Shown one piece after another: positions 7,300-63,714 of a stretch of DNA of 64,000 nt; position 1 is the first letter of the stretch; each line of letters opens with the position of its first letter. A program made the translations under genes and the position numbers. Origin of the DNA: Eimeria praecox (lineage: Eukaryota). The stretch is from the NCBI GenBank assembly GCA_963920595.1, contig OY986946.1, positions 248,001-312,000 of the forward strand. The letters run 5' to 3'. The notes under the pieces are model-generated. The model was given only the letters and a program-made list of their open reading frames with translations, searched no databases and was not told where the DNA came from.

Positions 7300-10200
7300 A
7301 AATACCCGGCCGACAGCAAATGGAGTCATTGATCCTTTACAGTCGAATCGTCTACGCTCAGGCATTACACATCTCTATCATGTCTGGGTATTCCTGGCTA
7401 GTCCTGCTTGCGCACAGGCTGTACAGATAGATGAAATGCCGGTATTGTGGAGAGGGTGAAGCCTTCACAACTAATTATGGAAGGGTTGAAACCTATCGTC
7501 CAGAAACTGCATGAAGCGACTAGTGTGAGCGACACCGCTTGTTACATTGAAGCATTGAGCAAACAACTTGTGTTCTGCGTAAAGGGATGCTAACGGCGTA
7601 TTGCAGACAACATACGTCGAGCCATGCCAAACCCCCAACGCCTTCACCGCAGAAACATCTAATGCGAGCTGCCGTCGCCTCAACACACGACCAATATGAC
7701 GTAACCGTTACGCTACACTCTCTTGCTGCACCGCATTCTTTGTCGGTGTATCACCTCCGCTCCTACAAGATTCGCATTCCCATTAACCTGACGTTCCACC
7801 TACTCGCATGATAAAACACCTCAACAAGCGTCACTGCGCCGGGCGGTCGTCCAAAGATATGCTACGGAGAGCGGGCAATATAGCATGAGTCTAACTGGTG
7901 GTGGCAGTGGCAAGCGGCCTGCTTCATCCCAAGCGCCCGTCCGATTCTCACGCGCAAGCCGGCTCCTGCCCTGCTGCGGATTTTGGAGCCAGTGAAGATA
8001 GGCTAAAAGCCGCTAACATCCGTTGCCCACATGTTGTCCTGATGCTTACCATGGCGCTGAGATATTAACGCCCATCCCAAAGTCCCGACGGCATTGCTGT
8101 TGCTTCGGCTAGCAATGCAACAGTAGTTTGCCACTCTGCCTCACGGAGAAACGTGTGAACACCCCAACTACTTGGGACTGTGAAGTTCCCTTGTGTAGCC
8201 TTGTGGAGAACTGTAGTGATCGCCGCTTGGCCGACACATCTAGAGCGGCATTAGAACGCGAGTATACCTCCTTGCATCCCCCCGAACCTTCGCTGCCCTT
8301 AACGCCAGTGCATGACACAACTGTAGGCAAGGGAATGAACGGCAATGAACAGAATGTCGTAGGCCCTAATCAACGTGCCTCCCTGTGTTGCTGATTTAGC
8401 GGGGTAGGCAGCTCGACGGAGGTCTGGTGGATGCGGAAACGCACTGGCTGCACAGAAGTGCACGATAACGCAGCAACATCCAGCTTACGCTCGCTAGATG
8501 CCACTCGCCTAGCGCAAAGTGTTCGTTTGCGTGCAAAGCCCTGCTTCAAAATGCTGATGAGCGTTGGCATTTTAGCAGCCTTCAGCCCGGGGATGCAAAT
8601 GGCCGGCCGACAGCAAATGGAGTCATTGATCTTTTACAGTCGAATCGTCTACGCTCAGGCATTACACATCTCCATCATGTCTGGGTATTCCTGGCTAGTC
8701 CTGCTTGCGCACAGGCTGTACAGATAGATGAAATGCCGGTATTGTGGAGAGGGTGAAGGCTTCACAACTAATTATGGAAGGGTTGAAACCTATCGTCCAG
8801 AAACTGCATGAAGCGACTAGTGTGAGCGACACCGCTTGTTACATTGAAGCATTGAGCAAACAACTTGTGTTCTGCGTAAAGGGATGCTAACGGCGTATTG
8901 CAGACAACATACGTCGAGCCATGCCAAACCCCCAACGCTTTCACCGCAGAAACATCTAATGCAAGCTGCCGTCGCCTCAACACACGACCAATATGACGTA
9001 ACCGTTACGCTACACTCTCTTGCGGCACCGCATTCTTTGTCGGTGTATCACCTCCGCTCCTACAAGATTCGCATTCCCATTAACCTGACGTTCCACCTAC
9101 TCGCATGATAAAACACCTCAACAAGCGTCACTGCGCCGGGCGGTCGTCCAAAGATATGCTACGGAGAGCGGGCAATATAGCATGAGTCTAACTGGTGGTG
9201 GCAGTGGCAAGCGGCCTGCTTCATCCCAAGCGCCCGTCCGATTCTCACGCGCAAGCCGGCTCCTGCCCTGCTGCGGATTTTGGAGCCAGTGAAGATAGGC
9301 TAAAAGCCGCTAACATCCGTTGCCCACATGTTGTCCTGATGCTTACCATGGCGCTGAGATATTAACGCCCATCCCAAAGTCCCGACGGCATTGCTGTTGC
9401 TTCGGCTAGCAATGCAACAGTAGTTTGCCACTCTGCCTCACGGAGAAACGTGTGAACACCCCAACTACTTGGGACTGTGAAGTTCCCTTGTGTAGCCTTG
9501 TGGAGAACTGTAGTGATCGCCGCTTGGCCGACACATCTAGAGCGGCATTAGAACGCGAGTATACCTCCTTGCATCCCGCCGAAGCTTCGCTGCCCTTAAC
9601 GCCAGTGCATGAAACAACTGTAGGCAAGGGAATGAACGGCAATGAACAGAATGTCGTAGGCCCTAGGCAACGTGCCTCCCTGTGTTGCTGATTTAGCGGG
9701 GTAGGCAGCTCGACGGAGGTCTGGTGGATGCGGAAACGCACTGGCTGCACAGAAGTGCACGATAACGCAGCAACATCCAGCTTACGCTCGCTAGATGCCA
9801 CTCGCCTAGCGCAAAGTGTTCGTTTGCGTGCAAAGCCCTGCTTCAAAATGCTGATGAGCGTTGGCATTTTAGCAGCCTTCAGCCCGGGGATGCAAATGGC
9901 CGGCCGACAGCAAATGGAGTCATTGATCTTTTACAGTCGAATCGTCTACGCTCAGGCATTACACATCTCCATCATGTCTGGGTATTCCTGGCTAGTCCTG
10001 CTTGCGCACAGGCTGTACAGATAGATGAAATGCCGGTATTGTGGAGAGGGTGAAGCCTTCACAACTAATTATGGAAGGGTTGAAACCTATCGTCCAGAAA
10101 CTGCATGAAGCGACTAGTGTGAGCGACACCGCTTGTTACATTGAAGCATTGAGCAAACAACTTGTGTTCTGCGTAAAGGGATGCTAACGGCGTATTGCAG

Positions 10201-11050
10201 ACAACATACGTCGAGCCATGCCAAACCCCCAACGCCTTCACCGCAGAAACATCTAATGCGAGCTGCCGTCGCCTCAACACACGACCAATATGACGTAACC
10301 GTTACGCTACACTCTCTTGCTGCACCGCATTCTTTGTCGATGTATCACCTCCGCTCCTACAAGATTCGCATTCCCATTAACCTGACGTTCCACCTACTCG
10401 CATGATAAAACACCTCAACAAGCGTCACTGCGCCGGGCGGTCGTCCAAAGATATGCTACGGAGAGCGGGCAATATAGCATGAGTCTAACTGGTGGTGGCA
10501 GTGGCAAGCGGCCTGCTTCATCCCAAGCGCCCGTCCGATTCTCACGCGCAAGCCGGCTCCTGCCCTGCTGCGGATTTTGGAGCCAGTGAAGATAGGCTAA
10601 AAGCCGCTAACATCCGTTGCCCACATGTTGTCCTGATGCTTACCATGGCGCTGAGATATTAACGCCCATCCCAAAGTCCCGACGGCATTGCTGTTGCTTC
10701 GGCTAGCAATGCAACAGTAGTTTGCCACTCTGCCTCACGGAGAAACGTGTGAACACCCCAACTACTTGGGACTGTGAAGTTCCCTTGTGTAGCCTTGTGG
10801 AGAACTGTAGTGATCGCCGCTTGGCCGACACATATAGAGCGGCATTAGAACGCGAGTATACCTCCTTGCATCCCGCCGAAGCTTCGCTGCCCTTAACGCC
10901 AGTGCATGAAACAACTGTAGGCAAGGGAATGAACGGCAATGAACAGAATGCCGTAGGCCCTAGGCAACGTGCCTCCCTGTGTTGCTGATTTAGCGGGGTA
11001 GGCAGCTCGACGGATGTCTGGCGGATGCGGAAACGCACTGGCTGCACAGA
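7300..11050. repeat. Tandem array of a 1,297-bp unit, ~2.9 copies (a further ~1.5 copies at ~13480-15370)
   Basis: Near-identical sequence at 7471/8768/10065 (offset 1297) and again at 13654. Confidence 0.95.
7416..11041 (-). CDS. Candidate Pro micro-exons in the 1,297-bp array: CCT at 7416, 8713, 10010 and CCA at 8445, 9742, 11039
   Basis: Minus strand reads tgtaCAG|CCT|GTGCGC and tgtgCAG|CCA|GTGCGT. The diverged paralogous site at 15530 keeps CAG|ACT|GTACGT. Confidence 0.45.
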
Positions 11051-11601
11051 CGTTCACGATACTGCAGCAACAGCCACTTGTGGCGCCCCCCTTTTCCATG
11101 CATATTATCCCATTGTAGCATGTTCTTCAGAAATTATCCTTGCAGCGGGTCAGGGGTGCTCGAGGTGGATGCGTCTCTATCAAATGCCTCTAACGCCTCA
11201 GTAATAGCCACCCACAGGTGCTGTACGGTGTCCAGGCTTCCCGCTGGCTCAGAGGAGGCACCAATCAGAGTGGGGCGCTTATTTTCCACGGCGGCCAGTA
11301 GTGCATACCAGAAGGATATTGGCCATGTAGTGAGCAAACCACAGTCGAATCCCTAACGTTATTCGGGCTGGAGGGCCACCCGGCAAGACGCAAAGCTGTT
11401 TGAGCGCTGGACAGGTGCAGTGCTGCTCGCAGGAGTGCTAACTTCACCGCTCATTGTTGTAGAGTTGGTGGCGCCTCCCGGAAGCGTTTCCACGCAAAGC
11501 CAGACAACAGAAAGATGACGCTTGTGCAAAGCGTGAGCGACGCCTGCGCTGTTCGCACACAAGACGCTCGCTCCGACTGCGAAAAATAGAGGCGCACTTA
11601 C

Positions 11602-11676
11602 CCAGAAACGCCATATACTGCATTGGGGATTTTCACGGCGTAGTATTGCTAATCGCGACTTGCTGCCCCCCCCCAT
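11602..11676 (-). CDS. Possible initial exon (ATG, 25 codons, phase-0 GTAAGT donor); second copy at 16093-16167
   Basis: ATG at 11676 gives MGGGSKSRLAILRRENPQCSIWRFW, followed immediately by a perfect GTAAGT. It lies just inside the 5' (minus-strand) edge of both duplicated blocks. Confidence 0.25.
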
Positions 11677-12008
11677 GCTCCGCGCGGGCTACCAGGGGAA
11701 CCGCAGGGAACGGAACGCCCTGTGGATTCCCTGTTCGTCGCGGGCTGCTTGGGAGCTCGCCGAGAGTCGTCTTGCGCACGATGCCATTGAGGCGCCGCAA
11801 CCGAAGATGAGCGCATCTCCAATTAGCAGCGGAAGAAGGGGACACCGTGTGTGGAGTAGCATATCTACTGTCACGCACTATGCTCTGTGAAACCGCCTTG
11901 TTGCTCGCTCTGCAAATATTGGTTGCCTTACTAAGCTGCTTCACCACTAGCTCATGAAACAAAAAGCACACCTTGGTACAGATAGGCCAGGATAGAGGCT
12001 GCACACAC

Positions 12009-12367
12009 CTTCTGTAAAATACCATGATTGCCGGTGGCTACCATGCTGCGTGAAAGTTCCCTGCTGCTCTGTCTGAAGATGCGCCTTTATATACTCAGAG
12101 ATATCAATACGTCTTTACAGCTGAAGGCGAACGCGCCTCAAGTTACTGGTGTGTATATACAGTCAGCGTGGGCCACCATGCTCACCTTCTGTGTAATGCC
12201 ACGTACGGTACCGCCTACCACAAGCCGATGGCCTGCCTCGGTGCACTCTCCTCAAGTATTCGTCCCATATTCAGTGACTGCACCACTAATATCTGCTCCT
12301 GAATGCGCAAGTAGGTCAAATCACTTGTAGGGGAAGGCATGCCGCATCAGGCCAGGCAGCTCACCTT
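12009..12367 (-). CDS. Three AAG (Lys) single-codon micro-exon candidates at 12365, 12186 and 12009
   Basis: ttcgCAG|AAG|GTGAGC, tacaCAG|AAG|GTGAGC and tttaCAG|AAG|GTGTGT, with introns of 176 and 174 nt. Intron sequence resembles the 1,475-bp array introns (tctgctcctgaatgc at ~12292 vs ~254). Confidence 0.65.
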
Positions 12368-12545: not shown

Positions 12546-15500
12546 TAAGGGTTACAATGCCGAGCGGCAAGGTGAAAGGGAACACTTTTTCTGCTGCTTG
12601 CGTAGGAGCTGTGGCGTGGTAGGCATCTCCTGGCTTCTCTGAACGCCATACTTTACCGCACCCGTCAACGCCTTAAAGCCTCCCGATATGTATAACTCTC
12701 CAGTGCATTGCAACATCGCTGGTTAGAAACTACAATAAAGACACGGAGTTGGCATTTAGAAGCAAGCCTACTCTCTGCAAGCATCACTAGCTACAAGCAC
12801 ACTTGCTTCCTGAAACAGCAGCGGCGCACAGGCAAGGAAACCTGGCGCGCAAATGACACTTCAAAAGCCATCCACAGCATTAAACGACATCCTCCATGCC
12901 TATGCTAGCAGACGATGCTTCTGCCAAGGCTGTCAACAGTCAACGCTCAATTTCTCCGTAGAATTGTAGGTGGTCATGGATCTAATCCTTGTCACTGCAC
13001 GTGCTGGGGCCACCTGCTAAACGAGTTTGCAGAGGTTCACTCAGCTTTGAATTGCTGCTCAGAACCCTGTTGCTTATGAACGTGCACGCATTGAAACTCG
13101 GTTGCGGTGTGTGTGGGACACGCTCGTGGTTATCGACGGCAGCCCATTTGCAGTGTTGGGGCCCACCGGCCAACTTGTGCGCGTTCGAAACCCTACCCAT
13201 AATATTTGTCACAAACTACGAGCGTGAAGTGTTTACCACACGCTGAATCACCACTATGCGCATTCCTGGGTGCTAGTGGCTTCGGCACAACCGCTGAAGG
13301 ACCCTCCCAGGATATATGGTGCAGCCGTGCTTCTCCAGCAGCCAAGAAGAGCATCGCCATTCGCACTCGGCATCTTCCCTTGTCTTCTTACCCAGTCCCG
13401 CCAAATCTCTTCGCTAGCGAGCAAAACGCTGAAAAATGCCGATATGTTTAGGATTTTTCTGGAGCTATCAACTCTGGCCTGCAAATACCCGGCCGACAGC
13501 AAATGGAGTCATTGATCCTTTACAGTCGAATCGTCTACGCTCAGGCATTACACATCTCCATCATGCCTGGGTATTCCTGGCTAGTCCTGCTTGCGCACAG
13601 GCTGTACAGATAGATGAAATGCCGGTATTGTGGAGAGGGTGAAGGCTTCATAACTAATTATGGAAGGGTTGAAACCTATCGTCCAGAAACTGCATGAAGC
13701 GACTAGTGTGAGCGACACCGCTTGTTACATTGAAGCATTGAGCAAACAACTTGTGTTCTGCGTAAAGGGATGCTAACGGCGTATTGCAGACAACATACGT
13801 CGAGCCATGCCAAACCCCCAACGCCTTCACCGCAGAAACATCTAATGCAAGCTGCCGTCGCCTCAACACACGACCAATATGACGTAACCGTTACGCTACA
13901 CTCTCTTGCGGCACCGCATTCTTTGTCGGTGTATCACCTCCGCTCCTACAAGATTCGCATTCCCATTAACCTGACGTTCCACCTACTCGCATGATAAAAC
14001 ACCTCAACAAGCGTCACTGCGCCGGGCGGTCGTCCAAAGATATGCTACGGAGAGCGGGCAATATAGCATGAGTCTAACTGGTGGTGGCAGTGGCAAGCGG
14101 CCTGCTTCATTCCAAGCGCCCGTCCGATTCTCACGCGCAAGCCGGCTCCTGCCCTGCTGCGGATTTTGGAGCCAGTGAAGATAGGCTAAAAGCCGCTAAC
14201 ATCCGTTGCCCACATGTTGTCCTGATGCTTACCATGGCGCTGAGATATTAACGCCCATCCCAAAGTCCCGACGGCATTGCTATTGCTTCGGCTAGCAATG
14301 CAACAGTAGTTTGCCACTCTGCCTCACGGAGAAACGTGTGAACACCCCAACTACTTGGGACTGTGAAGTTCCCTTGTGTAGCCTTGTGGAGAACTGTAGT
14401 GATCGCCGCTTGGCCGATACATCTAGAGCGGCATTAGAACGCGAGTATACCTCCTTGCATCCCGCCGAAGTTTCGCTGCCCTTAACGCCAGTGCATGAAA
14501 CAACTGTAGGCAAGGGAATGAACGGCAATGAACAGAATGCCGTAGGCCCTAGGCAACGTGCCTCCCTGTGTTGCTGATTTAGCGGGGTAGGCAGCTCGAC
14601 GGAGGTCTGGTGGATGCGGAAACGCACAGCCTCCACACCAGTGCACGATAACGCAGCAGCATCCAGCTTACGCTCGCTAGATGCCACTCGCCTAGCGCAA
14701 AGTGTTCGTTTGCGTGCAAAGCCCTGCTTCAAAATGCTGATGAGCGTTGGCATTTTAGCAGCCTTCAGCCCGGGGATGCAAATGGCCGGCCGACAGCAAA
14801 TGGAGTCATTGATCTTTTACAGTCGAATCGTCTACGCTCAGGCATTACACATCTCCATCATGTCTGGGTACTCCTGGCTAGTCCTGCTTGCGCACAGGCT
14901 GTACAGATAGATGAAATGCCGCTATTATGGAGGGGGTGAACCCTCCATATCTAATAGTGGAAGGGTTGTAAAGCACTGTCAAGTAATTGCTAGAACCAAT
15001 CAGCGTAAGCGACTCCGCTTGTTGCATTGAAGCATTGAAGAAAGAGCTTGTTTTCTATGGTAACGGCGTATTGCAGGCACCATTCGTCAGGCCACGTCAA
15101 ACCCCCAACGCCTTCACCGCAGAAACATCTAATGCAAGCTGCCGGCGCCTCAACACACGACCAATATGACGTAACCGTTACGCTACACTCTCTTGCGGCA
15201 CCGCATACACTGTCAGTGTATCACCTCCGCTCCTACAAGATTCGCATTCCCGTTAACCTGACGTTCCACCTACTCGCATGATAAAACACCTCAACAAGCG
15301 TCACTGCGCCGGGCGGTCGTCCAAAGATATGCTACGGAGAGCGGGCAGTCTAGCATGAGTCTAACTGGTGGTGCATGCAGCAACACCGCCAGTGCATGAA
15401 ACAACTGTAGGCAAGAGAATGAACGGCAACCAACAGAATACCGTAAGCGCTAAGCGGGACGCCTCCATAGGGTGCTGATGTAGCGGGGGTAGGCAGCTTG

Positions 15501-16210
15501 ACAGAGGTCTGGTGGATGCGGAAACGTACAGTCTGCTCGGACGTGCACGATACTGCAGCAACAGCCACTTGTGGCGCCCCCCTTTTCCATGCATATTATC
15601 CCATTGTAGCATGTTCTTCAGAAATTATCCTTGCAGCGGGTCAGGGGTGCTCGAGGTGGATGCGTCTCTATCAAATGCCTCTAACGCCTCAGTAATAGCC
15701 ACCCACAGGTGCTGTACGGTGTCCAGGCTTCCCGCTGGCTCAGAGGAGGCAACAATCAGCGTCAGGCGCTTATTTTCCACGGCGGCCAGTAGTGCATACC
15801 AGAAGGATATTGGCCATGTAGTGAGCAAACCACAATCGAATCCCTAACGTTATTCGGGCTGGAGGGCCACCCGGCAAGACGCAAAGCTGTTTGAGCGCTG
15901 GACAGGTGCAGTGCTGCTCGCAGGAGTGCTAACTTCACCGCTCATTGTCGTAGAGTTGGTGGCGCCTCCCGGAAGCGTTTCCACGCAAAGCCAGACAACA
16001 GAAAGATGACGCTTGTGCAAAGCGTGAGCGACGCCTGCGCTGTTCGCACACAAGACGCTCGCTCCGACTGCGAAAAATAGAGGCGCACTTACCCAGAAAC
16101 GCCATATACTGCATTGGGGATTTTCACGGCGTAGTATTGCTAATCGCGACTTGCTGCCCCCCTCCATGCTCCACGCGGGCTACCAGGGGAACTGCAGGAA
16201 CGCGCCTTGT
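12546..16210. repeat. Segmental duplication, copy 2 (paralogous to 6363-11720), with an internal deletion near 15370-15385
   Basis: Direct sequence match at offset 6183 on the left and ~4490 on the right. Confidence 0.92.
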
Positions 16211-16293
16211 GGCTGCACTGATCGTAGGAAGCAACCGTGCTGCTCGGGAATAGTTCTGGTACGTAAAATAACCTCAGTATTCAGGCACTGAAG

Positions 16294-16315
16294 CCCCCCC
16301 CCCCCCCCCCCCCCC
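16294..16315. repeat. Poly-C tract (C22; G22 on the minus strand)
   Basis: Directly visible homopolymer. Confidence 0.95.
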
Positions 16316-18917
16316 AAAATGCAGTGGTGGTCACTCGTACGAAATCAACGAACTCATGTGAACGTGCTCACGCTTTGCGCATGCGCTATTGGCGTACTGC
16401 TACAGGGTTTCAAGCGCTTCGGGGACGAGGTGATAGGCCAGTCTGATTCAGTGGAACCATGTGCACCTCAGAAGATGCATCTGCATTGACGCTTGCCGCT
16501 GAACACACTCCCTTTGTTTGTCGGCGGAAAGATAGGGTTTGCCGTCACCTCGATATTATATTGTAGCCTTTCGATAATCCCGTTTTCCTCAAGGACGCAA
16601 GCAAACATGCCTAGTGGGCACAGAATTGACCCCGCAGAGCCTCAATGCAAACAGTATATAAGAGTCAACAACTTGTAGTGGAGGTGTGCTAACCCCGTGC
16701 ATGAGCCCTTGGCGTCCTAACGAACAGCGCACGTAGCTCCTAACCAGGCGTGTTCGCTAGTTGCCAGCCCTTTCTGTTTCCCTGCAAATGTCCAATCTTT
16801 TTTAGCACAGAAGCAAGCTTCCATACATCAATGGGGTGTTTCGGAAATGTGCAAAGAAAGGCGGGCCCTATATTAACGCACAAACTGCGTCAAATGAGCG
16901 AAGCACGAGAGAATTTTATGCCTGCGCCACCTAATATAAAAAGATATTGAAGAAGGTTGGATATGCCAAAGCATGGCCTGCGCCCAAGCAGCGCCTGTGC
17001 CTGTTCCTCTTGTTAGCCTAATTGTGCTCCCTATATGGCTGCCTGCACCGCACAAGCCGCTGCTGACTTACCATCGGATTCGCAAACACTAGACAAGGGG
17101 ATGAGGGGAGCACGTGCAGCACGCGGCAAGCGACGAATTATGCAAAGCGTACCAATGTATGAAGGCTGTATCAGGCTGCTCTGCTCTAAGATATATGACG
17201 CAGGCGCAGACCAACTTTCTGTATGCATGAGTTATTGGTTGAAGGAAAGACTTGTCCTTTGCAAACAGTCGCCTTACGGTACCTGCGGGTGTTCTGCCAA
17301 TATTAAAGGCACAGAATGTAGATTCACTGTGTCCCATGGGATTGAACGAAACCATAGATGCCCCATATGAACGTGGCAGAGCCAGATCGTGCAGGTACCT
17401 CATCGCGTATTGAAGGCTGCTGCCTTTGATGCCCCTGCATAAAAAGGCCTTCAGTGCAATGGCTGCAGTCAGGGTGTAGGACGCCGAGGAAATGTTAACT
17501 CCTGAGGCCGTTCCTGCCATCTCTACCCCAACTCTTCAACTGCACAGGAGCAGCAATTTTGCCACAGGTGTGGCTTGAGATGACTCCACGTAAGCGTTCC
17601 GCAAACAAACGAAGAATTTTGCCGAGTGGCATTACGCTTACGGATGATGTGCACGGTATAGATCGCTTGCTATTCCTTTTGGTGGCTGCACATGAACCTA
17701 AAGGTACCTATTACATTTACTCTCGAAATGAAGCAAGAAAAACACTCCTACAGGCACCGTCCCGCTGCAGAATGGTGCTGTTGCAAGCAAGACTATCTGT
17801 GGAGATATCATAAAATCCCCGATCGTGCTACGCGGGTGCATCGCCCAAATTATTTCCTGGGTAGGAAGGTCTTGCTACACCTACCTGGGAGCACTAGTGC
17901 TGTACTGGGAATGGCGTACATCTTAAAGTGGGAGGCCAGCGGCGCCAGGTCAGATACATACTAGATTAGCGTCTGGATACGTTGGCTTGAACCAGACATC
18001 CGCGCAAAGGGTTCGCTATATTACCACTTTACTCAGTGTCATAGCCACGAAGTGCTGCTTGCAAAACCGCCCCTACAGCAGCTGCATGAAGTACGTGTCA
18101 ACGTATCATGCCGCTCAATAGCCAACAATATGCTGACCAGCGAAAGGGAAACGTTTCGCCCAATGTCGAAGCAAAAGAAGTGGTAACTCGCCTAGATATA
18201 CGGTGCGCATTACCTTCTTAGGATGCATATGTATCTGAACACAGAGCTTTCTTTATATGCCTTCCCACTGCTTGCACAACGGCACGCATATAAAGCAGTT
18301 TCTCGGAACGCTTGCGTACTTTCAGCATGCCGCTCAGTCGCTGCATGCATTGCTCCATGCAGGCGTCTAAACACCTTCAAAGCCGACAATATACTCTATG
18401 TGCATAGTGTCTAAGCGGCTCAACAATCGGTTGCAACAGGGGGTATTGCCATGACGCATCTGCACCTTAGTTCACACGAAGGGCACACGCTTCCGATGCA
18501 CGCAACATGCATCAAAAAGTTCCCCGTGGGGTACTACATATAATTCACGATCCTTCTGCATTGATCACCAAACAGTTCCCCAACAAGCCATATCAAGGAG
18601 CTGCCTGCAATAGTACGGCCCAGGCTACTACATGGAGATGCCGCCAAACCCTGATTGCCGAAACCGCAAAGCCTTCAAACACTAATGACGTATTATCAGT
18701 TGGCTGCAATCTGGGAACCCAAAGTTTCTGGCACGCAATTCCGCGCCCAATACCACGCTCGAAATTCTTGTTGTGCAGCAATACAAGCAGGCCCATTAAC
18801 ATTAGCCCCCTAAACCAGATCACTGTGCGTGCCACTTACGGCCCCGCGACCGTCACAAAGGGATCCTGGCTGCCGTTAATGCCTGGTACCGCGCTATGAG
18901 GAGCCTGTGGCACCCAC

Positions 18918-20855: not shown

Positions 20856-21414
20856 CTGGGTAAAACAGCGAGCGACCATACAGCCAAAGAAGCCGTCTCT
20901 ACACTGCGCCCTTCAACGCGAGTACGCAAACTGCATAACCCCACGATGCTCACGCATGCAGGTACCCCACATATCCACGAAATAATGCGTTTTCTCGTAC
21001 TAGCGAAGGGGGTTGATTTCACCTGGGCAGCCTGATCAATTCCACCTTCAACACCAAATGCAAATTGTGCAGCTGGCTCCAAGGGGCGTTATTGCCGAAT
21101 TCTGCTGCTTTTGAAGGCCAGCAAACACCTAAAATGCTTAGGCTCTCCGACAAACAACGTACGTATAGACAGAAAGCCTGCTTTTTGTCTACCTGTGCTT
21201 ACTTGGTTGGGTCGCTCTGAATGCTTTGTCGTGGGATGCCTTGTTCAGTCAAAGACTAGCAATACACTCATAAATTGCAACTTGGCCGAACACAAAGGCA
21301 TTTAAATAGGGACGCCCAAACAGAATCACCCCTATGCAGTACAGGTTTGGGGTGCGCATTCCCCTATCCAATAAAGCGCATTCCTTATTTTGCACTTCAT
21401 ATATGCAGACCTAC

Positions 21415-24400: not shown

Positions 24401-24635
24401 CACCGGCATTGCAGATGCAGTTTAGCTGGCTACTTGTCCACTCATGTTGTACTACTCTCAGAAGGATTAGCCACAGCCTTTTGCGTTCAACCGCTGCGGC
24501 AAATTGGTGGCGTTTGAAGTGCGTGTTCTAAACGCTTTCCAACCTGTACTACCACAGGACCTTTACACTATTCAAGCAGGCTCACTTAGACTGGGTTGGG
24601 CAGGCAAGAATTTTTGCATGGTGGCGGCTCACCGT
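21415..24635 (-). CDS. Candidate Pro/Trp/Asp/Thr micro-exon block: ACG 24633, ACT 24203, CCA 24063, TGG 23929, CCT 23506, GAC 22828, CTT 22118, CCT 21747, GAC 21415
   Basis: Each reads YAG|NNN|GTR on the minus strand (donors GTGAGC, GTATGT, GTATGC, GTGAGC, GTGAGC, GTAGGT, GTAAGC, GTAAGC, GTAGGT). They sit at the conserved cores of a diverged dispersed module. Confidence 0.6.

Positions 24636-51098: not shown

Positions 51099-51099
<1 letters not shown>

Positions 51100-51167
<68 letters not shown>
51100..51167. repeat. (TA)34 microsatellite, present only in 10.3-kb unit 4
   Basis: Directly visible, and absent at the equivalent position (~40765) of unit 3. Confidence 0.97.
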
Positions 51168-51172
<5 letters not shown>

Positions 51173-51173
51173 T

Positions 51174-51223
51174 TGGTTGGCGCTGTGATCTGATGATATC
51201 GCATCAGATCACAGCGCCAACCA
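51174..51223. repeat. Perfect 22-bp inverted repeat with a 6-nt loop
   Basis: tggttggcgctgtgatctgatg (51174-51195) pairs with catcagatcacagcgccaacca (51202-51223). Confidence 0.95.
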
Positions 51224-53575: not shown

Positions 53576-56386
53576 TCGCTGCGTTGATTGGGAACCCAGA
53601 GCACCGGATCCGCCTTGAGGCTCCGGAGTTTTGCCTGCTGGGGCCTCAGTTGTCCGTGTGCTTCTTCGACACTGTTCGCTGATGCATCAAAAGCTTGAAC
53701 AGCACCCACATTCGGCCTTGGCATCCCTAGAAGCCAGCGTAGCCACCTACAGGCAACCGCGCGACCAGCCCTGCAGCAGTCATTTGCCTCCAATGCGAGC
53801 TGGCACAGGTTGGCTGTTTTTCTGCCTACTTTGCGAAACCGGATAATGGTGATCGACTGCCATATGTATCGGACGCCCTAGCGTACGTACAGGCTAGACA
53901 AGCGACGTTGTTGCCACAACGACATAGTTCCATGCTTCATAGTGGGCAATGTACGAACTCAGAGCGCAGCAGCATCATTCAGGAGATACCAAGAGCAAGA
54001 GAGCGAATGGCGTATGATATCGGCGTTGCAAGGGCCGCTTCATTCCCACTTATCTAGGCACGAAGCACTGTTTTTTATTGGAATCTCGAGAACTTATTGT
54101 GCTCAACCATTGAGCAGCAGATCTCATGTTAGATGATTGGCTACTCGCGAGACTATGGCTGGTATCAGCTTACAGGCTATGGCAAAAGCGAGCGATGCGC
54201 CACTCAGTTTTCGCATCATCGCCTTGTACAGTGTAATGCTGTTGCAGCAACCTTTTTGGACAGAAGCAAACCCAAATCACGCTCGCGACGGTCTACGATA
54301 AACTTGCATATTTTGCTTGGTTCAAGGTCATACTGGTGCAAAAGCGTTCAAACTGTTGTTTTGTTAATTCCACAGGATTCACCATCCATGTGTAATGGAG
54401 TACACCTTTGTATGAAAGATATTCGCACTCTGTTGGTTTTACGCTCAGGAAGAATCGTATTTGTGTACACTGGGATTCCTACCCATCCAGAACGATTGCC
54501 AGTGCTTAAATGCACGCAAGGGAAATTGCAGTTATGCGTAGCAGAACAGTCAGAGCCTGCAGGCCGCGAGCATGCAACCTGAATTACGGCATGCATTTAG
54601 GGCCACTCCTTCACTAAAGAACCTCCTGAGACGGCCCGAGACGGCCCGCGGGGATACCGCAGCGCACAGCCCTTTGGACTGTCTCGGCTTTTTCAACACA
54701 CTTTGGTGCACTCGTCTTCATCCACTGTAGGGTATTATCAAGGGAACGCGCGGCTGCTTGTTGGATGGCTCAGCACGCCGCTGCCGTGAGCATCCAGCTC
54801 TCCTAAGAGGTGATGATGTGCGCCTCGGCTTGCCAAACAAGCACTTGCTTACGTCATATATGCAGACCCTCCTGATGCGTTGATTAGCCACCAAAAGATC
54901 TAGGTCCATGCTACGGCCCTGTTTCCCCCAAGATGCTCAACGGTGAGCCTTCAACAGAGGGTGCATTCAACTTCATCATTCGCTTCCCAGCACCTAGTGG
55001 AATTTGCCGAGGCACGCCACTGCCCCCGCTATGTTGCATAAAAGTTGTCACTCGTGCGGGCTGGCAGACGTGAGCGATCATGCTGTCTGCTCCTTTGCAA
55101 ACCGCATAATGGCGAGAGGTGTTTAGATGCACCGGACAAACTACCGCGCGTACAGGCTAGAAACGGTGGCGCCGTTGCCACAACAACAAACCCCCATGTT
55201 GCACGGTGGGCATTGCATCAATCCAGCGCATTACGGCACCATCCTTAGGATATCCAAATTACGGGAGAAAATCTTCTAGGATACCGGTGCCGCAGGCCCA
55301 GTTTTGTTGGGTAGATGCCTAGACGATGTTTATCATTCCAAACAAGATTTTCCCAAACTCATTGGTCTCGAACTGATGTTTGAAATGCTGGTTTAGAACG
55401 TGTTGGGTGTGGCTTCAGCTTCCGAGAGAGCTGGCGTTTTTTTGCTTCTCAGTCAAATACAACTAATAAGCTGTTAGGTAGTTGTTACACCTCTGGCAGT
55501 GCCAGCTTACAGGCTATGGCAACAGCGAGGGGAAAATGACACTCTTCCCCCCTATCACCTTTTACTGTCTGATACAGCAACCCCATCAGACAGACGCAAA
55601 CTCATACTACTCCCCCCTCAACGCTACGGTTACGCATAACCGCTCTGCTTATATCAAGGCCGCGCATCAGAAAAGGCGTTCAAATTTTCGTATTGTTACT
55701 CACTATTCGCGGTTTGTGCGGAGTGAAACGTAGTTAGGTAAGAAAGCAGATGGCGTCCCTTCTTGTGGGCCCCTTTCCTCAAGCTCAATCTGCCTTTTAA
55801 CCACTGGCGCTTTTACGCTTTTACACTCCTTCCCCTAGGTCACCCAATTGACTGGCCAGCGGTTCAAAGCCAGAGGAGTGTCGACTGGGCTACTGGAAGA
55901 CGCACCCACTATACAACGAATTGCTCATGATAAAACAAAAGTATTAGATTATGTTCAGTTAGTGGGGCACCGCCTCCTATGGTGTCAGTCTCTGGTAGCT
56001 CCGCATTCGCAAAGCCCGGTTGCGTACTTTCTGCACGGGCAAGCACATTTCCCAATTGAGGATTACCTTTTTCGCGGACGGCTTCAGTTTAGCAAGACTG
56101 CTGTGAGTTTGCTACAAAAACACAGACGCATTCAGAGGAGCCGTAGCACACGGGTAAATGCCACTAAATCAATAGCTGAAAGCGTAACACCCTCGATATG
56201 GGCACCTCCCATGTACAGTTTTCTGCTTATAAGCTTGTCTTCCGCCTGTATAATGTTGCTCCTGGCAAAGCACTTAAAGTTCCAGGGAGGGCCCATTAAC
56301 TAATGATAGCGCATACACTATCAATCCTCCCGTAAAAATGGAGCCATTTCGTTGGATGCCGGGTTCCCTGGTGGTAAACATACAAG
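53576..56386 (-). CDS. Candidate micro-exons in diverged single-copy modules: CTT 56384, AAA 56028, TGG 55906, CCT 55511, CCT 55154, CCT 54174, CCT 53891, CGA 53576
   Basis: YAG|NNN|GTR is retained at positions homologous to those in the 21-24 kb and 33-34 kb modules, although the flanks are heavily diverged. Confidence 0.55.
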
Positions 56387-57329
56387 CTGGTTCACTCGGT
56401 TGTTCGCAGTGGTGAGCAGTGTTAACCTTCGCAGCCCCTTGAGTGTTTACGGAGCTGAATTCGTTCTGAGAAATGAGGCCGAGGCCCGCACGTGGTATTG
56501 GTATAATTCGCGAACTACCCTAGATGATTTTCCGCAGCGCATAATTTCTAGCAATTCAAAAACTCGGCAGCTGCTACCCTCAGCGAATGGCACTGCACAG
56601 GTAGTTCCATTAAACAGTTAGCCCCTCACTATGCACTAGCTTGAAATGGATTAACAGGCATTTACGGCGGTTAATCGCTATACAGAAGAAGCGTCGTTTG
56701 AAACGTTTTTCCAAACGGTTTCCGTGTACCTGCAGCATAGAAGCACGCTGGGTGTTAACGCTTCTCCAAAAGGATCAATCACGCATGTCTGCGCAGTCGA
56801 GATGGCTTTGGTGGCGGAAGCGACAGATGCGAGCGCAAACCCCGTTGCCTTCACGCCGCGCAAATCATGAATACGTTGCTTGGCGCAGAGCCATGCCAGC
56901 TTAAAACGCTCAAACTCCGCCGACGTTACACAACATTCGTGCTCCATGCTCAATGGAACACTGACGTACACACCGACGTACACAACATTCGTGCTCCATG
57001 CTCAAGGTAAGAACGCAAATATAATGCCTTTTAGCAGGCTTCTACGCTCGTGCAGAATCATTTTTCTAATGACCTGGCACTCTTGCGCTTGAATGCAACT
57101 GTGTTCCCTGTGGGGCAAGGGCAGACTACCGCAGTAACGTACATATACTCTACCGCTGGCCAACTAGTTCGTTAGGGATGATCAATATAACCGTTCAGAA
57201 GGGCTTAGAAGAGTCCCCCTACTCCAGATATCAACGTTTGTCCACACGGAAAATCAGCTATCTATATAGGCGATTGCCGATATGGACATGCAGGGCAGCT
57301 GCTAACTACGCCAGCTTACTAACACAAAG

Positions 57330-60300
57330 CAGGTGCACGCCCGCGAACCAAATGTCTGCCTTTTGCCCATCCCACTACAATCTACCGCATCATTATCTGA
57401 CGCAAATCTCACAGCATTAGGGCTTCCTTAACGTGAAACAACACGTAAGCATATGGTTAGCCTGCTGACATCGGCATACTAACAGCGCTTGCTGATGACT
57501 CCTGCGCAGCGGAAGAACGCCTTCGTGAAACTGCTTGCGTACCCGCTGAACAGGTAGACAAACCACCGCAGGGCCGCTGCGAACAGGTTGGGCAATCGAA
57601 CGGCTTCTGACGGTCGTAGCAATATGGATAAGCGCACACGATGATGCTATGGAGCTGCAAGAAGCATGAACGCTTCGGTTGGCGCAAGGCTACGCCAATG
57701 CTAAGCCGCCCACACTCCCGCAGTGCTATACACCATTTGCAATCCATGATCAGTGGCGAAAAGCATGGTAAGAATGATAACGGTACGCCTTCCTGCAGCC
57801 GCGTTTGCTCGAAGAGCATATTCTTTCTACGCCACCACAATCCTACGCTTGAATGCGCTCGCATTTTCTTGGTTGCACGGGGAGACTATTGCCATCGTAC
57901 GTGCGAAAGCATTCACGACCTCCAGTCGGTCAACAAGCAACTAGCAATAGGGCAAGGCGGAGCAGGGCCATGCCACAAATGCAAACCGTTCTGAGGCAGT
58001 CGGGATGTGTCCAGGCAGGCATTGATATCTAGACTGTGGTTGCCTCTTTAACAGGTTCGGCTGCAGCCTTCCTGAGTTGCTGTAGTACAGCAAAAAGGCA
58101 AAGCATGGCTATTTGCTTGTTGGCTCAGTGCTTCGCGACCGCAAGCAGCGTGCGTTTGCAAGAAGTGGTGACATGCGGCTCTCTTTGTTGCAGAAAGGTC
58201 TCTTTTGATTTAGTATTTCATATATAAGGACGTACATCCTGCGTTGACCAAGCACAGGAGGAACCAGATTCGTCCTGTGATGCCGCGCCTCAGCCTCCGG
58301 GGCAGTATGCCCACGTAAGCTTCCCCGACGGTTTTCGTTGATGAACCTATAACACGATATATATTGGTGGCCGTCGTGCTCTTCCCAAACATCCACCAGA
58401 ATTAGCCCAGACACGTGATGCGACGCCCCACGCTGCTCAGCACTTCCCACTCGTGCTGGTTGGGAAACGTAAGCGGCCGTGCTTCGCTTTCCTTACAAAG
58501 CACAACATAACAACGATTGACACTCAGATATATCAGGCAAACCTGAGAGCGTACAGGCTAGACAAGTGATGCCGTTGTCACCACAACAAGTTTCCATGTT
58601 GCAAGGTGAACAATGCGTCAACTAAGAGCATTGCAGCACCATTCTTCCAATACCAAAACTACTGGGACGAACGTCCAAGGATGCCGACTTTGCTGCAGAT
58701 GCAATTCCATCAGGTGCCCATTCACGGTGAACCCCATTACGGAGAGCCCGACCTATTTTGCGTCACATTGTCTCTCGGGAAGGCTCCTCCATGAAATACG
58801 TATTTGCAGCGAATTTCACGTAGGTCCAACGTTCAAGAGGGCTGGATATTCACACCTCGTTCAAAGAAGGCTGGCTAGTCATGGCCCTCTAAGACGTTCA
58901 GTCATGTTTGTTTGGGAGGGCGGGAGACGTTCGACGGTGGCAGCTTACAGACTATGTCAAATACGGATGAACTAGTTTTGCGGTCTCAGTCCAGCACCGT
59001 ATGGTGCACTACGCCATCGGAGCAACTGTGTCGTACAGATGAGAACCAAGACCAGGCTGCTTCCGTACAGAGAGAGGCATGAATGCCTTGCCTGGTTCCG
59101 GGCTAAGCAGGCGCAGAGTCGCTTTAACTCCGGTATTGTTGCACAGTATTCATGGCCATACGAAGCAGGTGACTGGATCGCAACGCAGTTCTCCACCAGC
59201 GTACTATGCAACGCGCTTTGGTGAGTGTCACCCTTGCCACTCGTGCCTATTACTCCGCATGCACTATCCTACCGAACTCCTGCAGCAGCGTCCAGTCGCA
59301 GGCGCTGTCTGCTTGCGCATATCGCCTCGGCGGTCTTTATCAAATACTTTCTTCACTGAGAGGTACGCCTGGATTTGCTGTTATACTCACCAGCTTTATC
59401 CCACCATACCGCCACTCCACTGTGCAACAAATGTCTGCCTTTTGCCCATCCCACTACAATCTACCGCATCATTATCTGACGCAAATCTCACAGCATTAGG
59501 GCTTCCTTAACGTGAAACAACACGTAAGCATATGGTTAGCCTGCTGACATCGGCATACTAACAGCGCTTGCTGATGACTCCTGCGCAGCGGAAGAACGCC
59601 TTCGTGAAACTGCTTGCGTACCCGCTGAACAGGTAGACAAACCACCGCAGGGCCGCTGCGAACAGGTTGGGCAATCGAACGGCTTCTGGCGGTCGCAGCA
59701 ATATGGATAAGCGCACACGGTGATGCTATGGAGCTGCAAGAAGCATGAACGCTTCCGTTGGCGCAAGGCTACGCCAATGCTAAGCCGCCCACACTCCCGC
59801 AGTGCTACACACCATTTGCAATCCATGATCAGTGGCGAAAAGCATGCTAAGAACGATAACGGTACGCCTTCCTGCAGCCGCGTTTGCTCGAAGAGCATAT
59901 TCTTTCTACGCCACCACAATCCTACGCTTGAATGCGCTCGCATTTTCTTGGTTGCACGGGGAGACTATTGCCATCGTACGTGCGAAAGCATTCACGACCT
60001 CCAGTCGGTCAACAAGCAACTAGCAATAGGGCAAGGCAGAGCAGGGCCGTGCCATAAATGCAGACTGTTCTGAGGCAATCGGGATGTGTCGACGCAAAAG
60101 CTGCTGATTTCTAGAGTGTCACACCCTGGTTATGAAGCTTTGTTGCCGCTGCCTTGGTGGGCTGCTGAGCTTTGTGAAGTTAACCAGTTCCTCGTTAATA
60201 CGCTAAGTACTCCGGTACTGTTATTACCGTGCGTTTGCACGAAGGTGTGGCGTGCGAACCCCTGTGACGAATTGAGCTCTATTGGGGCTTAAGCGTCATG

Positions 60301-63300
60301 TAGGTGAACGAACTTTCTGCGTCGATTAGGCATCATATGGGGCAGACCTGCCGTGTCATGCCGCAATTCAGCCGGTGGACTTGGCATTCCCACATATGGT
60401 GATGTGCACCATGGGACACATTCAATTCCACAGGTTTCTTCCCAAACATCCTGTGAGATTCTCCTAGGCCAGTGGTTCTACGCATTGCTCTATGCAGGGC
60501 TTGGCACTCGCGCCGGTTGGCACGCGTAAGCGGTCATGCTGTTTCCTTTACAAGGCACATAATGGCCACCGATTGTTAGACGTATCAGGCAAACCATTGT
60601 GCGTACAGGCTGTACAAGTGACGCCGTTGCGACAACGGCAAATGTCCATGTTGCAAGATGGGCAATGCATCAACTCAGAACGTTGCAGCACCATTACGAA
60701 ACCCGCGGGGAGGAATATGCTAGAATACCAGCACTGCAGAAGGAGCTCCATTAGGTAGTTGCCGACTCACTGCGTATTATTCTGTAGTGAAAAACCCGTC
60801 GCATTTTTTCATTCAATTAATGCTCCTCTAACATCTACAATTGAACGCTGTGTTGCAGTTCAGAGACAGATGATGGCTCTAGCTCACAGTCTGTAGCATA
60901 GGCGAGACAAATATCGCTCACGCGTCACCTTAGCTATTCTTACTCTGTTTTGGCATCGGCAGAACTGCGTCGGGGCAGATACGCCCCTAAACCATGCTGC
61001 CGCCGGACAACGAGAGGAGACCTGCTTAGCTAAGAGCCACCCCGGTGCGCAACCGCTTAAACTGTTGCGCAGTTGCACACTATTCGCAATCCATGTTCAG
61101 TAAAGCACTGCAATGGACAGGAAGCAAAAGCGCAACATTCCTGCCAACTCCTATGCTCAGGAACGATTCCCTTTTTAAGGATCCAGCACTCATGCGCTTG
61201 AATGCGATAGCGTTCACTGCGTCGGGACCTGGATAATATTTAGTGTACAGGCATTTCCCCTGGCATACGCTTTCTAGAAGTAGTCCATCACTTTTGCTTT
61301 ATGCAACGCCCCAAATGGGTAATGCCTGGTCACCTTCTCCCGCTGCTGAATGGTTCTTGAGAACGCTCGCAAACGTTTTCTCGCAGTTCCCCCACACGGC
61401 AATCGACACTTGCAGCTACAGTTGATCTCACGGGCTGCAGTCCACCAGGCAGGCGCACGCCCGCGAACCAAATGTCTGCCTTTTGCCCATCCCACTACAA
61501 TCTACCGCATCATTATCTGACGCAAATCTCACAGCATTAGGGCTTCCTTAACGTGAAACAACACGTAAGCATATGGTTAGCCTGCTGACATCGGCATACT
61601 AACAGCGCTTGCTGATGACTCCTGCGCAGCGGAAGAACGCCTTCGTGAAACTGCTTGCGTACCCGCTGAACAGGTAGACAAACCACCGCAGGGCCGCTGC
61701 GAACAGGTTGGGCAATCGAACGGCTTCTGACGGTCGTAGCAATATGGATAAGCGCACACGATGATGCTATGGAGCTGCAACAAGCATGAACGCTTCCGTT
61801 GGCGCAAGGCTACGCCAATGCTAAGCCGCCCACACTCCCGCAGTGCTATACACCATTTGCAATCCATGATCAGTGGCGAAAAGCATGGTAAGAACGACAA
61901 CGGTACGCCTTCCTGCAGCCGCGTTTGCTCGAAGAGCATATTCTTTCTACGCCACCACAATCCTACGCTTGAATGCGCTCGCATTTTCTTGGTTGCACGG
62001 GGAGACTATTGCCATCGTACGTGCGAAAGCATTCACGACCTCCAGTCGGTCAACAAGCAACTAGCAATAGGGCAAGGCGGAGCAGGGCCATGCCACAAAT
62101 GCAAACCGTTCTGAGGCAGTCGGGATGTGTCCAGGCAGGCATTGATATCTAGACTGTGGTTGCCTCTTTAACAGGTTCGGCTGCAGCCTTCCTGAGTTGC
62201 TGTAGTACAGCAAAAAGGCAAAGCATGGCTATTTGCTTGTTGGCTCAGTGCTTCGCGACCGCAAGCAGCGTGCGTTTGCAAGAAGTGGTGACATGCGGCT
62301 CTCTTTGTTGCATAAAGGTCTCTTTTGATTTAGTATTTCATATATAAGGACGTACATCCTGCGTTGACCAAGCACAGGAGGAACCAGATTCGTCCTGTGA
62401 TGCCGCGCCTCAGCCTCCGGGGCAGTATGCCCACGTAAGCTTCCCCGACGGTTTTCGTTGATGAACCTATAACACGATATATATTGGTGGCCGTCGTGCT
62501 CTTCCCAAACATCCACCAGAATTAGCCCAGACACGTGATGCGACGCCCCACGCTGCTCAGCACTTCCCACTCGTGCTGGTTGGGAAACGTAAGCGGCCGT
62601 GCTTCGCTTTCCTTACAAAGCACAACATAACAACGATTGACACTCAGATATATCAGGCAAACCTGAGAGCGTACAGGCTAGACAAGTGATGCCGTTGTCA
62701 CCACAACAAGTTTCCATGTTGCAAGGTGAACAATGCGTCAACTAAGAGCATTGCAGCACCATTCTTCCAATACCAAAACTACTGGGACGAACGTCCAAGG
62801 ATGCCGAATTTGCTGCAGACGCAATTCCATCAGGTGCCCATTCACGGTGAACCCCATTACGGAGAGCCCGACCTATTTTGCGTCACATTGTCTCTCGGGA
62901 AGGCTCCCCCATACAATACGTATTTGCAGCGAATTTCACGTAGGTCCAACGTTCAAGAGGGCTGGATATTCACAGCTCGTTCAAAGAAGGCTGGCTAGTC
63001 ATGGCCCTCTAAGACGTTCAGTCATGTTTGTTTGGGAGGGCGGGAGACGTTCGACGGTGGCAGCTTACAGACTATGTCAAATACGGATGAACTAGTTTTG
63101 CGGTCTCAGTCCAGCACCGTATGGTGCACTACGCCATCGGAGCAACTGTGTCGTACAGATGAGAACCAAGACCAGGCTGCTTCCGTACAGAGAGAGGCAT
63201 GAATGCCTTGCCTGGTTCCGGGCTAAGCAGGCGCAGAGTCGCTTTAACTCCGGTATTGTTGCACAGTATTCATGGCCATACGAAGCAGGTGACTGGATCG

Positions 63301-63430
63301 CAACGCAGTTCTCCACCAGCGTACTATGCAACGCGCTTTGGTGAGCGTCGCCCTTGCCACTCGTGCCTATTACTCCGCATGCACTACCCTACCGAATTCC
63401 TGCAGCACCTTCCAATGAAAGGCGCTGTCT
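57330..63430. repeat. A-B-A array of ~2-kb units. A (57330-59310) recurs at +4120, and a ~660-bp segment is present three times (~57350, ~59429, ~61470).
   Basis: ORF-track recurrences at 57457/59536/61577 and 58109/62229. Confidence 0.93.
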
Positions 63431-63714
63431 GGTAAATTAACGCCAGAGCGTCTGATCAGAGTGGGCTTAGAATGCTGGGGAAACTCCAAGCCTAAGGTGA
63501 TGGATTCCTGGGATCTCTTGAATGTGCACGTTTCCCCATAGAATCGCGCCTCCATCTGAAAGCACATGGCTGTGTGCGAACAGACTGCGCGCAAGGTGTC
63601 ATGCCTGAGGGAATAGATGCTTGGCCCAGTTAAATTCCCTGATGATGGCTGAGAGCTCTTGCTCATATTGCTCTTTGCAGCCATCTGAGTCAGTCTACCA
63701 TGCCTGCATACTGG
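57543..63714 (-). CDS. Candidate micro-exons: CCA 63712, TCT 63069, CCT 62675, GAT 62356, CGG 61663, ACT 60888, CCT 60607, AAA 60314, CGG 59622, TCT 58949, CCT 58555, GAT 58236, CGG 57543
   Basis: TAG|TCT|GTAAGC, TAG|CCT|GTACGC, CAG|GAT|GTACGT, CAG|ACT|GTGAGC, CAG|CCT|GTACGC, CAG|AAA|GTTCGT, CAG|CGG|GTACGC and CAG|CCA|GTATGC. Confidence 0.5.

What the first reader, a model, noticed from the sequence alone, without database searches (positions are those of the whole stretch)
7416..63714. The whole window appears to be a minus-strand micro-exon gene locus with alternating Pro-rich and Glu/Lys-rich blocks
Seen: candidate 3-nt exons occur in every repeat family and face the same way. Their codons cluster by type: Pro/Thr/Ser/Trp/Asp at 63.7-51.5, 47.2-41.8, 36.9-31.4, 26.9-21.4, 15.5-13.6 and 11.0-7.4 kb, and Glu/Lys at 50.6-47.8, 41.2-37.5, 30.9-27.1, 20.9-18.9, 12.4-12.0 and 4.8-0 kb. 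None of the conserved triplets listed is a stop. Inference: one very long gene, or a tandem family, encodes low-complexity Pro-rich linkers plus charged helices. Any duplication, deletion or exon skip would keep the frame, which could explain the tolerance of nested duplications and allow single-residue isoform variation. Isolated sites may be chance matches and some are clearly broken.
Basis: partly seen in the sequence, partly recalled or inferred. Interest (0 to 1): 0.88.

Follow-up and report, generated by a model that had tools for sequence, protein, structure and literature searches.

The report
Gene built one codon per exon
Across 64 kb of an unidentified eukaryote, about 110 three-base stretches sit between intron-type end signals on one strand and would likely be spliced one codon at a time into proline-rich linkers and a predicted charged helix, a larger version of a layout reported in truffle, but no RNA was available to show the splicing.

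Summary
Observation confirmed. With duplicates removed (29,883 nt), minus-strand YAG-NNN-GTR[ACT]G occurs 52 times against 8-9 expected; other spacings and the plus strand are near chance. The sites also carry a T-rich tract and AG-poor zone that were not selected for. A cross-validated model sites (50 non-redundant), none a stop, and no donor excess remains once they are removed. Sites lie in old intron-plus-codon duplicates whose interiors have drifted to about 50% identity while 14-15 of 17 Glu/Lys-family junctions stay intact. The 1,475-bp unit reads four Glu, then Arg and two or three Lys: a single-helix pattern. Read depth in two DNA samples confirms the duplications; other contigs of this genome carry the same layout. 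Not shown: splicing, expression, isoforms, one gene versus several, gene ends, lineage. No RNA run was listed. Three of the six Pro-to-Glu/Lys alternations are recent copies. Prior art: Tuber nank genes with tens of codon-sized exons. This scan noted similar arrays before on other DNA. New variant of a known kind.

The parts
146..4754 (-). Glu/Lys array: 26 candidate 3-nt exons, 8 per 1,475-bp unit, introns 165-198 nt; continues past the left end of the window (about 9-13 units in all by contig depth)
   Evidence: depth. The acceptor of the 4754-type site reads CG in the majority contig of X1 and X2
4850..7300 (-). Stretch with only one borderline call (6591); long intron, gene boundary or missed exons
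7416..11041 (-). Pro block: 5 calls (CCT/CCA) in the 1,295-bp repeats
11846..12367 (-). Three intact AAG sites (12367, 12188, 12011) and one with a broken acceptor (11848); same intron family as the left-hand array
13599..15532 (-). Pro block: 2 calls (14898, 13601) plus altered relatives at 15532 (ACT) and about 14630 (GCT)
15600..18800 (-). Single-copy stretch with one call (16884, TTT); long intron or gene boundary
18918..20930 (-). Glu block (20855, 19256 called; 18920 and 20191 weaker), partial fourth copy of the 10.3-kb unit; at 20930 a TTT followed by GC where other contigs of the genome have GT
21415..26894 (-). Pro/Thr/Trp block, 10 calls plus weaker Asp sites (22830, 21417) and a dead copy at 23145
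27125..30867 (-). Glu/Lys block, 6 calls; dead copy at about 27602
31427..37231 (-). Pro/Thr/Trp block, 11 calls (copy of the 10.3-kb unit)
37462..41202 (-). Glu/Lys block, 6 calls (copy)
41762..47566 (-). Pro/Thr/Trp block, 11 calls (copy)
47797..49938 (-). Glu/Lys block, 5 calls (copy); dead copy at 48274
51515..63714 (-). Pro-rich block, 23 calls, built of an old three-site unit (families A, B, C) and 2.06/4.12-kb recent duplications; dead copy at 52296
24184..51099 (.). 10.3-kb tandem unit, about 2.6 copies at 99.2-99.6% identity, confirmed by contig depth in two DNA samples

Best explanation
The window is likely the interior of a protein-coding gene (or a tandem family) on the minus strand whose exons are predicted to be single codons, each cut out between ordinary GT-AG introns of about 120 to 2,700 nt, and which has grown by tandem duplication of intron-plus-codon units. 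Shown: the k=3, one-strand excess with full splice-site anatomy; homology of the flanking introns; retention of AG and GT in old duplicates; real nested duplications; dead copies among live ones. Inferred: the introns are removed one after another (a 3-nt exon cannot hold the factors of both its ends at once; from general knowledge of the spliceosome), so each codon is added to a growing upstream exon. Inferred: the triplets are read in phase 0 and give Pro/Thr/Trp linkers alternating with Glu/Lys stretches, the last one a 60-100 residue single alpha-helix. Because every unit adds or removes one whole codon, duplication, deletion, loss of a splice site or skipping would keep the frame, so the length of linker and helix can drift one residue at a time.
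For: k=3 minus-only excess, 52 vs 8-9; cross-validated 42 vs 1-7. Features not used to pick sites: T fraction at -15..-5 0.41 vs 0.27 (p 3e-8), AG count at -25..-4 0.54 vs 1.56 (p 1e-8), 52 sites vs 113 control sites of other k; donor +6 is C or T in 46 of 52. In six families, mean pairwise identity is 0.50 in flanks, 0.71-0.80 in the triplet and 0.89-0.98 at AG and GT (partly circular for seed members). Least circular test: the 1,475-bp unit is tiled by 8 homologous introns with 38-61% interior identity and a star-like tree (median end branch 0.4); all 8 junctions are intact in the window and 7 of 8 in the majority contig of X1 and X2; chance under no selection is 2e-3 to 2e-5 for 7 of 8 and 3e-5 to 4e-9 for 14 of 17 family junctions. 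After cutting out the k=3 sites, minus-strand donors are at chance, 113 vs 116, so no large set of ordinary exons is hidden here; 16 of 52 sites have an in-frame TAG directly upstream, so they cannot be ends of longer phase-0 exons. Triplets: Pro 17 of 50 (background 4.6%), Glu+Lys 16 of 50 (6.8%); 0 stops in phase 0 against 3 and 12 in the shifted phases (duplicates included, set incomplete). Out-of-sample: contigs from elsewhere in the genome that match only the 35-40 nt up to the acceptor at 20933-20931 go on, in the consensus of their loose ends, as TTT then GT[A/G]TGC (9 contigs each in X1, X2, X3), CCT then GT (4 in X1) or GCT then GT (2 in X2); 2 further X2 contigs were unclear (consensus agreement only 0.55-0.75). 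Single-copy-depth contigs also join two Glu/Lys splice motifs across unlike interiors (table 5). Contig depth 50-52, 142-152, 184 in X2 and 418-487, 1,524-1,559, 1,822 in X1 matches 1, 3 and 4 copies.
Against: No RNA evidence at all. No start codon, stop, UTR or ordinary exon was found, so the product is known only as an incomplete interior. Of the 10 or so family members found from flanks alone and not used as seeds, 5 were broken (23145, 52296, 48274, 11848, possibly near 56828), and 20930 has GC for GT. The acceptor of the 4754-type site reads CG in the majority contig of both X1 and X2 while all four window copies read AG: either most copies have lost that exon or the window has a consensus error. 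Family C triplets are not conserved (GAT, AAA, CGA, GGA, GGC, GAC, GAC). The absence of stops (p 0.13) and the Glu-run/Lys-run order (8 of 70 or 7 of 35 arrangements) are not significant alone. Most of the 57 metagenome hits to a three-site pattern were short satellites that mimic it, showing that repeats alone can give the pattern, although those have 17-40 nt periods and near-identical units. Gaps of 2.4 and 3.2 kb could be gene boundaries.
Confidence: 0.72

Rival explanations
1. Same origin, but the locus has recently died or was never translated: the sites were or are spliced, yet no protein is made now, and the recent amplifications are drift in a relaxed region.
For: Five or six broken copies; a broken acceptor in the majority array contig; very recent unequal duplications; no expression data.
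Against: At least 7 of 8 junctions intact after about 0.4 changes per site means selection held over most of that time; codon classes cluster and phase 0 alone is stop-free.
Confidence: 0.12
2. The sites are way-stations for step-wise (recursive) removal of one very long intron, or mutually skippable cassettes of which only a few enter any message, so the concatenated peptide is never made in full.
For: Acceptor directly followed by a donor is the anatomy of recursive sites (recalled); no ordinary exon in 64 kb; the CG variant at 4756 leaves an AG immediately before the donor.
Against: k=0 is not enriched (6 vs 7.7-8.7); the spacer is exactly 3 and its content is codon-like and family-conserved. 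Using a donor 3 nt downstream keeps the 3 nt in the product.
Confidence: 0.1
3. A non-splicing motif (protein-binding or satellite-derived) carried along by nested tandem duplication, which only looks like paired splice sites.
For: All sites lie in repeat families; satellites elsewhere mimic the pattern.
Against: At least six unrelated families and further contigs share only the splice consensus; the middle triplet varies while AG, GT, the T tract and the AG-poor zone are kept; one strand only.
Confidence: 0.06

Closest known systems
[quoted passage not shown] 2012, seen only as cited in passages of PMC4986451, PMC3689799 and PMC10197012)
   Same: Runs of tens of 3-bp exons; frame-neutral units.
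   Different: There the exons are reported as alternatively spliced to diversify a receptor with NACHT and ankyrin domains. Here about 110 candidates (more beyond the window) span over 64 kb with introns of 120-2,700 nt, appear to be the only exon class, and read as Pro linkers and a charged helix; no such domain was found in the window, and splicing is not shown.
Schistosome micro-exon genes, MEGs (passages of PMC4350168)
   Same: Most of the coding region in very small symmetrical exons, which would allow variants differing by a few residues.
   Different: MEGs carry signal peptides, are described as restricted to flatworms and have shown splice variants; their exons are of mixed small sizes (recalled: 6-36 nt). 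Here the size is uniformly 3, and the 5' end and lineage are unknown.
Single alpha-helix (SAH, ER/K) domains (abstract and one passage of PMC5347031)
   Same: Predicted product of the left array is only Glu, Arg and Lys, with Glu three or four residues from each basic residue (92 of 92 such positions for the 7-codon unit, 112 of 128 for the 8-codon unit).
   Different: Known SAHs are shown by experiment; I found no report of one encoded codon by codon. Here it is a prediction from unspliced DNA.
Isolated 1-3 nt exons (RPS24 3-bp exon, MAP4K5 three-base exon: search listings and abstract starts; Arabidopsis APC11 1-nt exon: passage of PMC8831610)
   Same: Show that spliceosomes can include exons this small.
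   Different: Single exons among ordinary ones, not arrays.

Membership tests
Tuber nank codon-sized microexon genes | Many 3-bp exons in a row | tested here: met
   At DNA level only:
Tuber nank codon-sized microexon genes | NACHT and ankyrin domains | tested here: inconclusive
   0 of 125 stop-to-stop frames of 75 aa or more reach a Pfam cut-off; the gene ends lie outside the window
Tuber nank codon-sized microexon genes | Alternative splicing of the microexons | not testable with these tools
   No RNA holder listed
Schistosome MEGs | Most of the coding region in very small symmetrical exons | tested here: met
   Within the window and as a prediction: no donor excess outside k=3 sites
Schistosome MEGs | Signal peptide, secreted or anchored product | not testable with these tools
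   5' end of the gene not in the window; no genome held
Schistosome MEGs | Flatworm host | not tested
   Organism is coded; GC 51.5% is unlike schistosomes (recalled)
Schistosome MEGs | Pool of splice variants | not testable with these tools
   No RNA holder listed
Single alpha-helix domain | Rich in Glu, Arg, Lys with no hydrophobic seam | tested here: met
   26 of 26 calls in 146-4754 are Glu, Lys or Arg; predicted product
Single alpha-helix domain | Glu-Lys/Arg pairs three or four residues apart | tested here: met
   the order alone has chance 0.11-0.2
Single alpha-helix domain | Stable monomeric helix in solution | not testable with these tools
   needs the protein

The most novel reading that the evidence does not exclude
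A live gene of well over 70 kb whose whole interior, 150 or more residues, is encoded one codon per exon across long introns, building a spring-like charged helix and proline linkers whose lengths are tuned residue by residue by duplication, exon death and exon skipping; the same genome holds a family of such loci that standard annotation and RNA mapping cannot see.
Probability: 0.4. Interest if true: 0.88.

Novelty: new variant of a known kind. Interest (0 to 1): 0.72.

Why it matters
If spliced as predicted, about 340 coding bases are assembled from 64 kb through over 100 consecutive splicing steps with no exon longer than a codon. That would test directly how a spliceosome works when exon definition is impossible, in what order introns leave, and how accurate such chains are. 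It also shows a route by which intron number and protein length grow together, one residue per duplication, and marks a class of genes that gene finders and read aligners would miss altogether. The layout is not without precedent (Tuber nank), so the news is scale, long introns, exclusivity and a structural rather than receptor-type product.

Tried and rejected
No whole genome is held, so gene ends, ordinary introns for a splice model and the lineage could not be examined. Run search with window 3366-8500: 3 holders, 2 studies, no RNA holder listed; this says nothing on expression. Laying X1-X3 on 3366-8500 and 16400-28790 gave no joint that removes a candidate intron; all three look like DNA. 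Pfam on 125 frames: 7 weak matches, all below cut-off, rejected. Rfam 0 and ARAGORN 0. TRF found only a TA run and a 24-nt doublet, so the units are not simple satellites. Metagenome scan with a three-site pattern: 57 loci, none similar to the window by blastn, so no cross-species comparison. Exons of other sizes: a few 6-, 7-, 9- and 12-nt candidates score well but cannot be told from chance pairings; GC-donor sites show no k=3 excess (5 vs 3-12 at other k). Longer exons ending at these donors were rejected for the 16 of 52 sites with an in-frame TAG just upstream. A tree of 15 Glu/Lys-family introns is unresolved (0 of 12 branches well supported), so the order of duplications is unknown. Assembly artefact for the duplications rejected by depth. 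Lineage: splice consensus, intron length and composition recall chlorophyte algae or coccidian protists (recalled, untested); Eimeria-type CAG and TGCATGCA repeats are scarce. The predicted spliced product was not searched or folded, so its relatives and structure remain open.
Full report
What the window is. Eukaryotic-type DNA of 51.5% GC with no long reading frame (longest stop-to-stop 214 aa), no Pfam match at cut-off in 125 frames, no Rfam family and no tRNA. It is built of nested direct duplications: a 10.3-kb unit (24184-51099, 99.2-99.6%), a 1,475-bp unit at the left end, 1,295-bp, 2.06/4.12-kb and 6.18-kb units, and older 65-75% matches. No genome is held. Three runs of one coded organism, two studies, hold the sequence; none is on record as RNA. 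Contig depths follow the copy numbers in the window: 50-52, 142-152 and 184 in X2 and 418-487, 1,524-1,559 and 1,822 in X1 for one, three and four copies. The 1,475-bp unit has contig depth 453 against 51 in X2 and 5,400-6,500 against 497 in X1, roughly 9 and 11-13 copies, of which the window shows 3.3 (depth is a rough guide).

The observation. On a set with one copy of each near-identical repeat (29,883 nt), YAG-N3-GTR occurs 84 times on the minus strand against 38.5-40.1 in shuffles, and YAG-N3-GTR[ACT]G 52 times against 8-9; the plus strand is at chance for k=3, and among k 0-15 on minus only k=7 reaches z about 3. The 52 sites have a T-rich tract (0.41 vs 0.27) and an AG-poor zone (0.54 vs 1.56) upstream relative to 113 sites of other k, and C or T at donor +6 in 46 of 52; none of these was used to choose them. 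A weight-matrix model trained on two thirds of the window and applied to the rest gives 42 sites at k=3 with score 10 or more, against 1-7 for other k on minus and 0-4 on plus. At score 8 or more the window holds 112 sites of 393 AG-N3-GT, 50 non-redundant, of which about 6-7 are expected to be chance; spacing is 119-2,671 nt, median 353. Once the k=3 sites are cut out, donors on the minus strand are at chance (113 vs 116) and acceptors only slightly above (z 1.5-1.9): nearly all splice signal in 64 kb sits at three-base spacers.

Selection. The sites fall into families whose flanking introns are homologous. Profiles built from flanks alone recover the seeds and about ten further members, five of them broken. 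Across six families identity is 0.50 in flanks, 0.71-0.80 in the triplet and 0.89-0.98 at AG and GT, but seeds were chosen for AG and GT. The least circular case is the 1,475-bp unit, which is tiled completely by eight homologous introns of 165-198 nt with 38-61% interior identity and an unresolved star-like tree. All eight junctions are intact in the window. In the majority contig of X1 and X2 one acceptor (4756) reads CG, and one donor (3447) is closer to consensus than in the window; I could not tell copy variation from a consensus error. Taking the worse count, 7 of 8, or 14 of 17 for the whole family, the chance without selection is 2e-3 to 2e-5 and 3e-5 to 4e-9 for branch lengths 0.3-0.5. 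An out-of-sample check came: contigs from elsewhere in the genome that match only the 35-40 nt ending at the acceptor near 20931 continue, in the consensus of their loose ends, with a triplet (TTT, CCT or GCT) and then GT, while the window's own copy has GC; 2 X2 contigs were unclear and the consensus agreement is only 0.55-0.75. One search likewise shows single-copy contigs that share only the 20-31 nt around Glu/Lys junctions. The layout therefore recurs in this genome.

What the triplets say. In phase 0, 17 of 50 non-redundant triplets are Pro and 16 are Glu or Lys (background 4.6% and 6.8%); the classes cluster (32 of 39, p 5e-5, 10 sites of other kinds left out); none of 112 is a stop, against 3 and 12 stops if the chain is read in the other phases. 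The lack of stops is not significant alone (p 0.13). Three of the alternations are recent copies of one unit. The left array reads four Glu, Arg and two or three Lys per unit, in which every or nearly every basic residue has Glu three and four places away, the pattern given for single alpha-helices in PMC5347031 (abstract and one passage); the order alone has chance 0.11-0.2, so it is suggestive, not proof. Family C triplets are poorly conserved, and missed or extra exons would change the linker sequence.

How it most likely works. Inferred: transcription on the minus strand through more than 64 kb; each intron is recognised across its own length and removed in turn, so that every codon is added to a growing upstream exon; the product is an extended spacer of Pro-rich linkers and charged helical segments. 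Shown at DNA level: units of intron plus codon were duplicated long ago (families at 50% identity) and again recently in blocks (99%), and single units die by loss of AG or GT. Since each unit holds one codon, all these events would keep the frame. Whether exons are also skipped in RNA, and whether the gaps at 15.6-18.8 and 4.9-7.3 kb are gene boundaries, is untested. I put 0.72 on this reading, 0.12 on a recently dead or non-coding locus, 0.10 on recursive or sparse cassette use, 0.06 on a non-splicing motif.

Comparison with what is known. Tens of alternatively spliced codon-sized exons are reported for Tuber melanosporum nank genes; I saw this only as cited in passages of PMC4986451, PMC3689799 and PMC10197012, not the 2012 paper itself. 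Schistosome MEGs have most of their coding region in very small symmetrical exons (passages of PMC4350168). Single 1-3 nt exons are known (listings; passages of PMC8831610 and PMC12584245). Searches showed no other report of long runs of 3-nt exons, none at this scale or with long introns; the library lacks most subscription papers and I read no supplements, where such gene models could lie. The locus works like the Tuber and MEG layouts but cannot be filed in either family. A metagenome scan gave 57 loci with three such Glu/Lys sites in a row, none related to the window; most are short satellites that mimic the pattern, but four (L001, L018, L030, L051) are arrays of 25-57 varied triplets between short introns. 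Earlier notes of this scan describe similar arrays in other genomes; they are unchecked leads and gave me the pointer to the Tuber paper.

Verdict. The feature is real and far beyond chance; a one-codon-per-exon gene is the best explanation; splicing and expression are not shown. New variant of a known kind, interest 0.72.

Noticed in passing
L030:1-2000 (minus strand): 57 varied triplets separated by a cloned intron-like unit of about 32 nt (35-nt period), no stop among them, reading as a complex peptide; an unrelated one-codon-exon array.
   Followed up: partly
L001:80-2710; L018:1-1960; L051 (minus strand, first 2.1 kb): Arrays of 25-34 triplets between 50-100 nt introns, diverged in L001 and cloned (about 65 nt) in L018 and L051; L051 holds one stop triplet.
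   Followed up: partly
window 4756 and 3447 (and their copies): Majority contigs of X1 and X2 read CG where all window copies read AG (on minus at 4756, on plus at 3447): one breaks an acceptor, one improves a donor. Copy variation or consensus error.
   Followed up: partly
window 20927-20967: A 35-40 nt element shared by at least 13 other contigs per run, there followed by a triplet and GT; in the window the donor is GC.
   Followed up: partly
window 4660-4690 and matching places in other Glu/Lys-family introns: A purine-rich motif 70-90 nt into the intron is partly conserved across the family and in places sits between AG and GT (8 or 12 nt): remnant exon or splicing enhancer.
   Followed up: no
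window 8050-8056 and copies; 17072-17088: Strong donors directly after ATG, 7 and 17 nt from an acceptor; possible start-bearing or frame-shifting exons, or chance.
   Followed up: no
window 3868-4042: Run X1 holds a 12.8-kb contig at depth 25 (single copy 497) that begins with a 90% match here; possibly a second, related organism in that run.
   Followed up: no
window 51086-51227 and about 16290-16315: A (TA)36 run at the edge of the 10.3-kb unit and a long G run in the single-copy gap.
   Followed up: no
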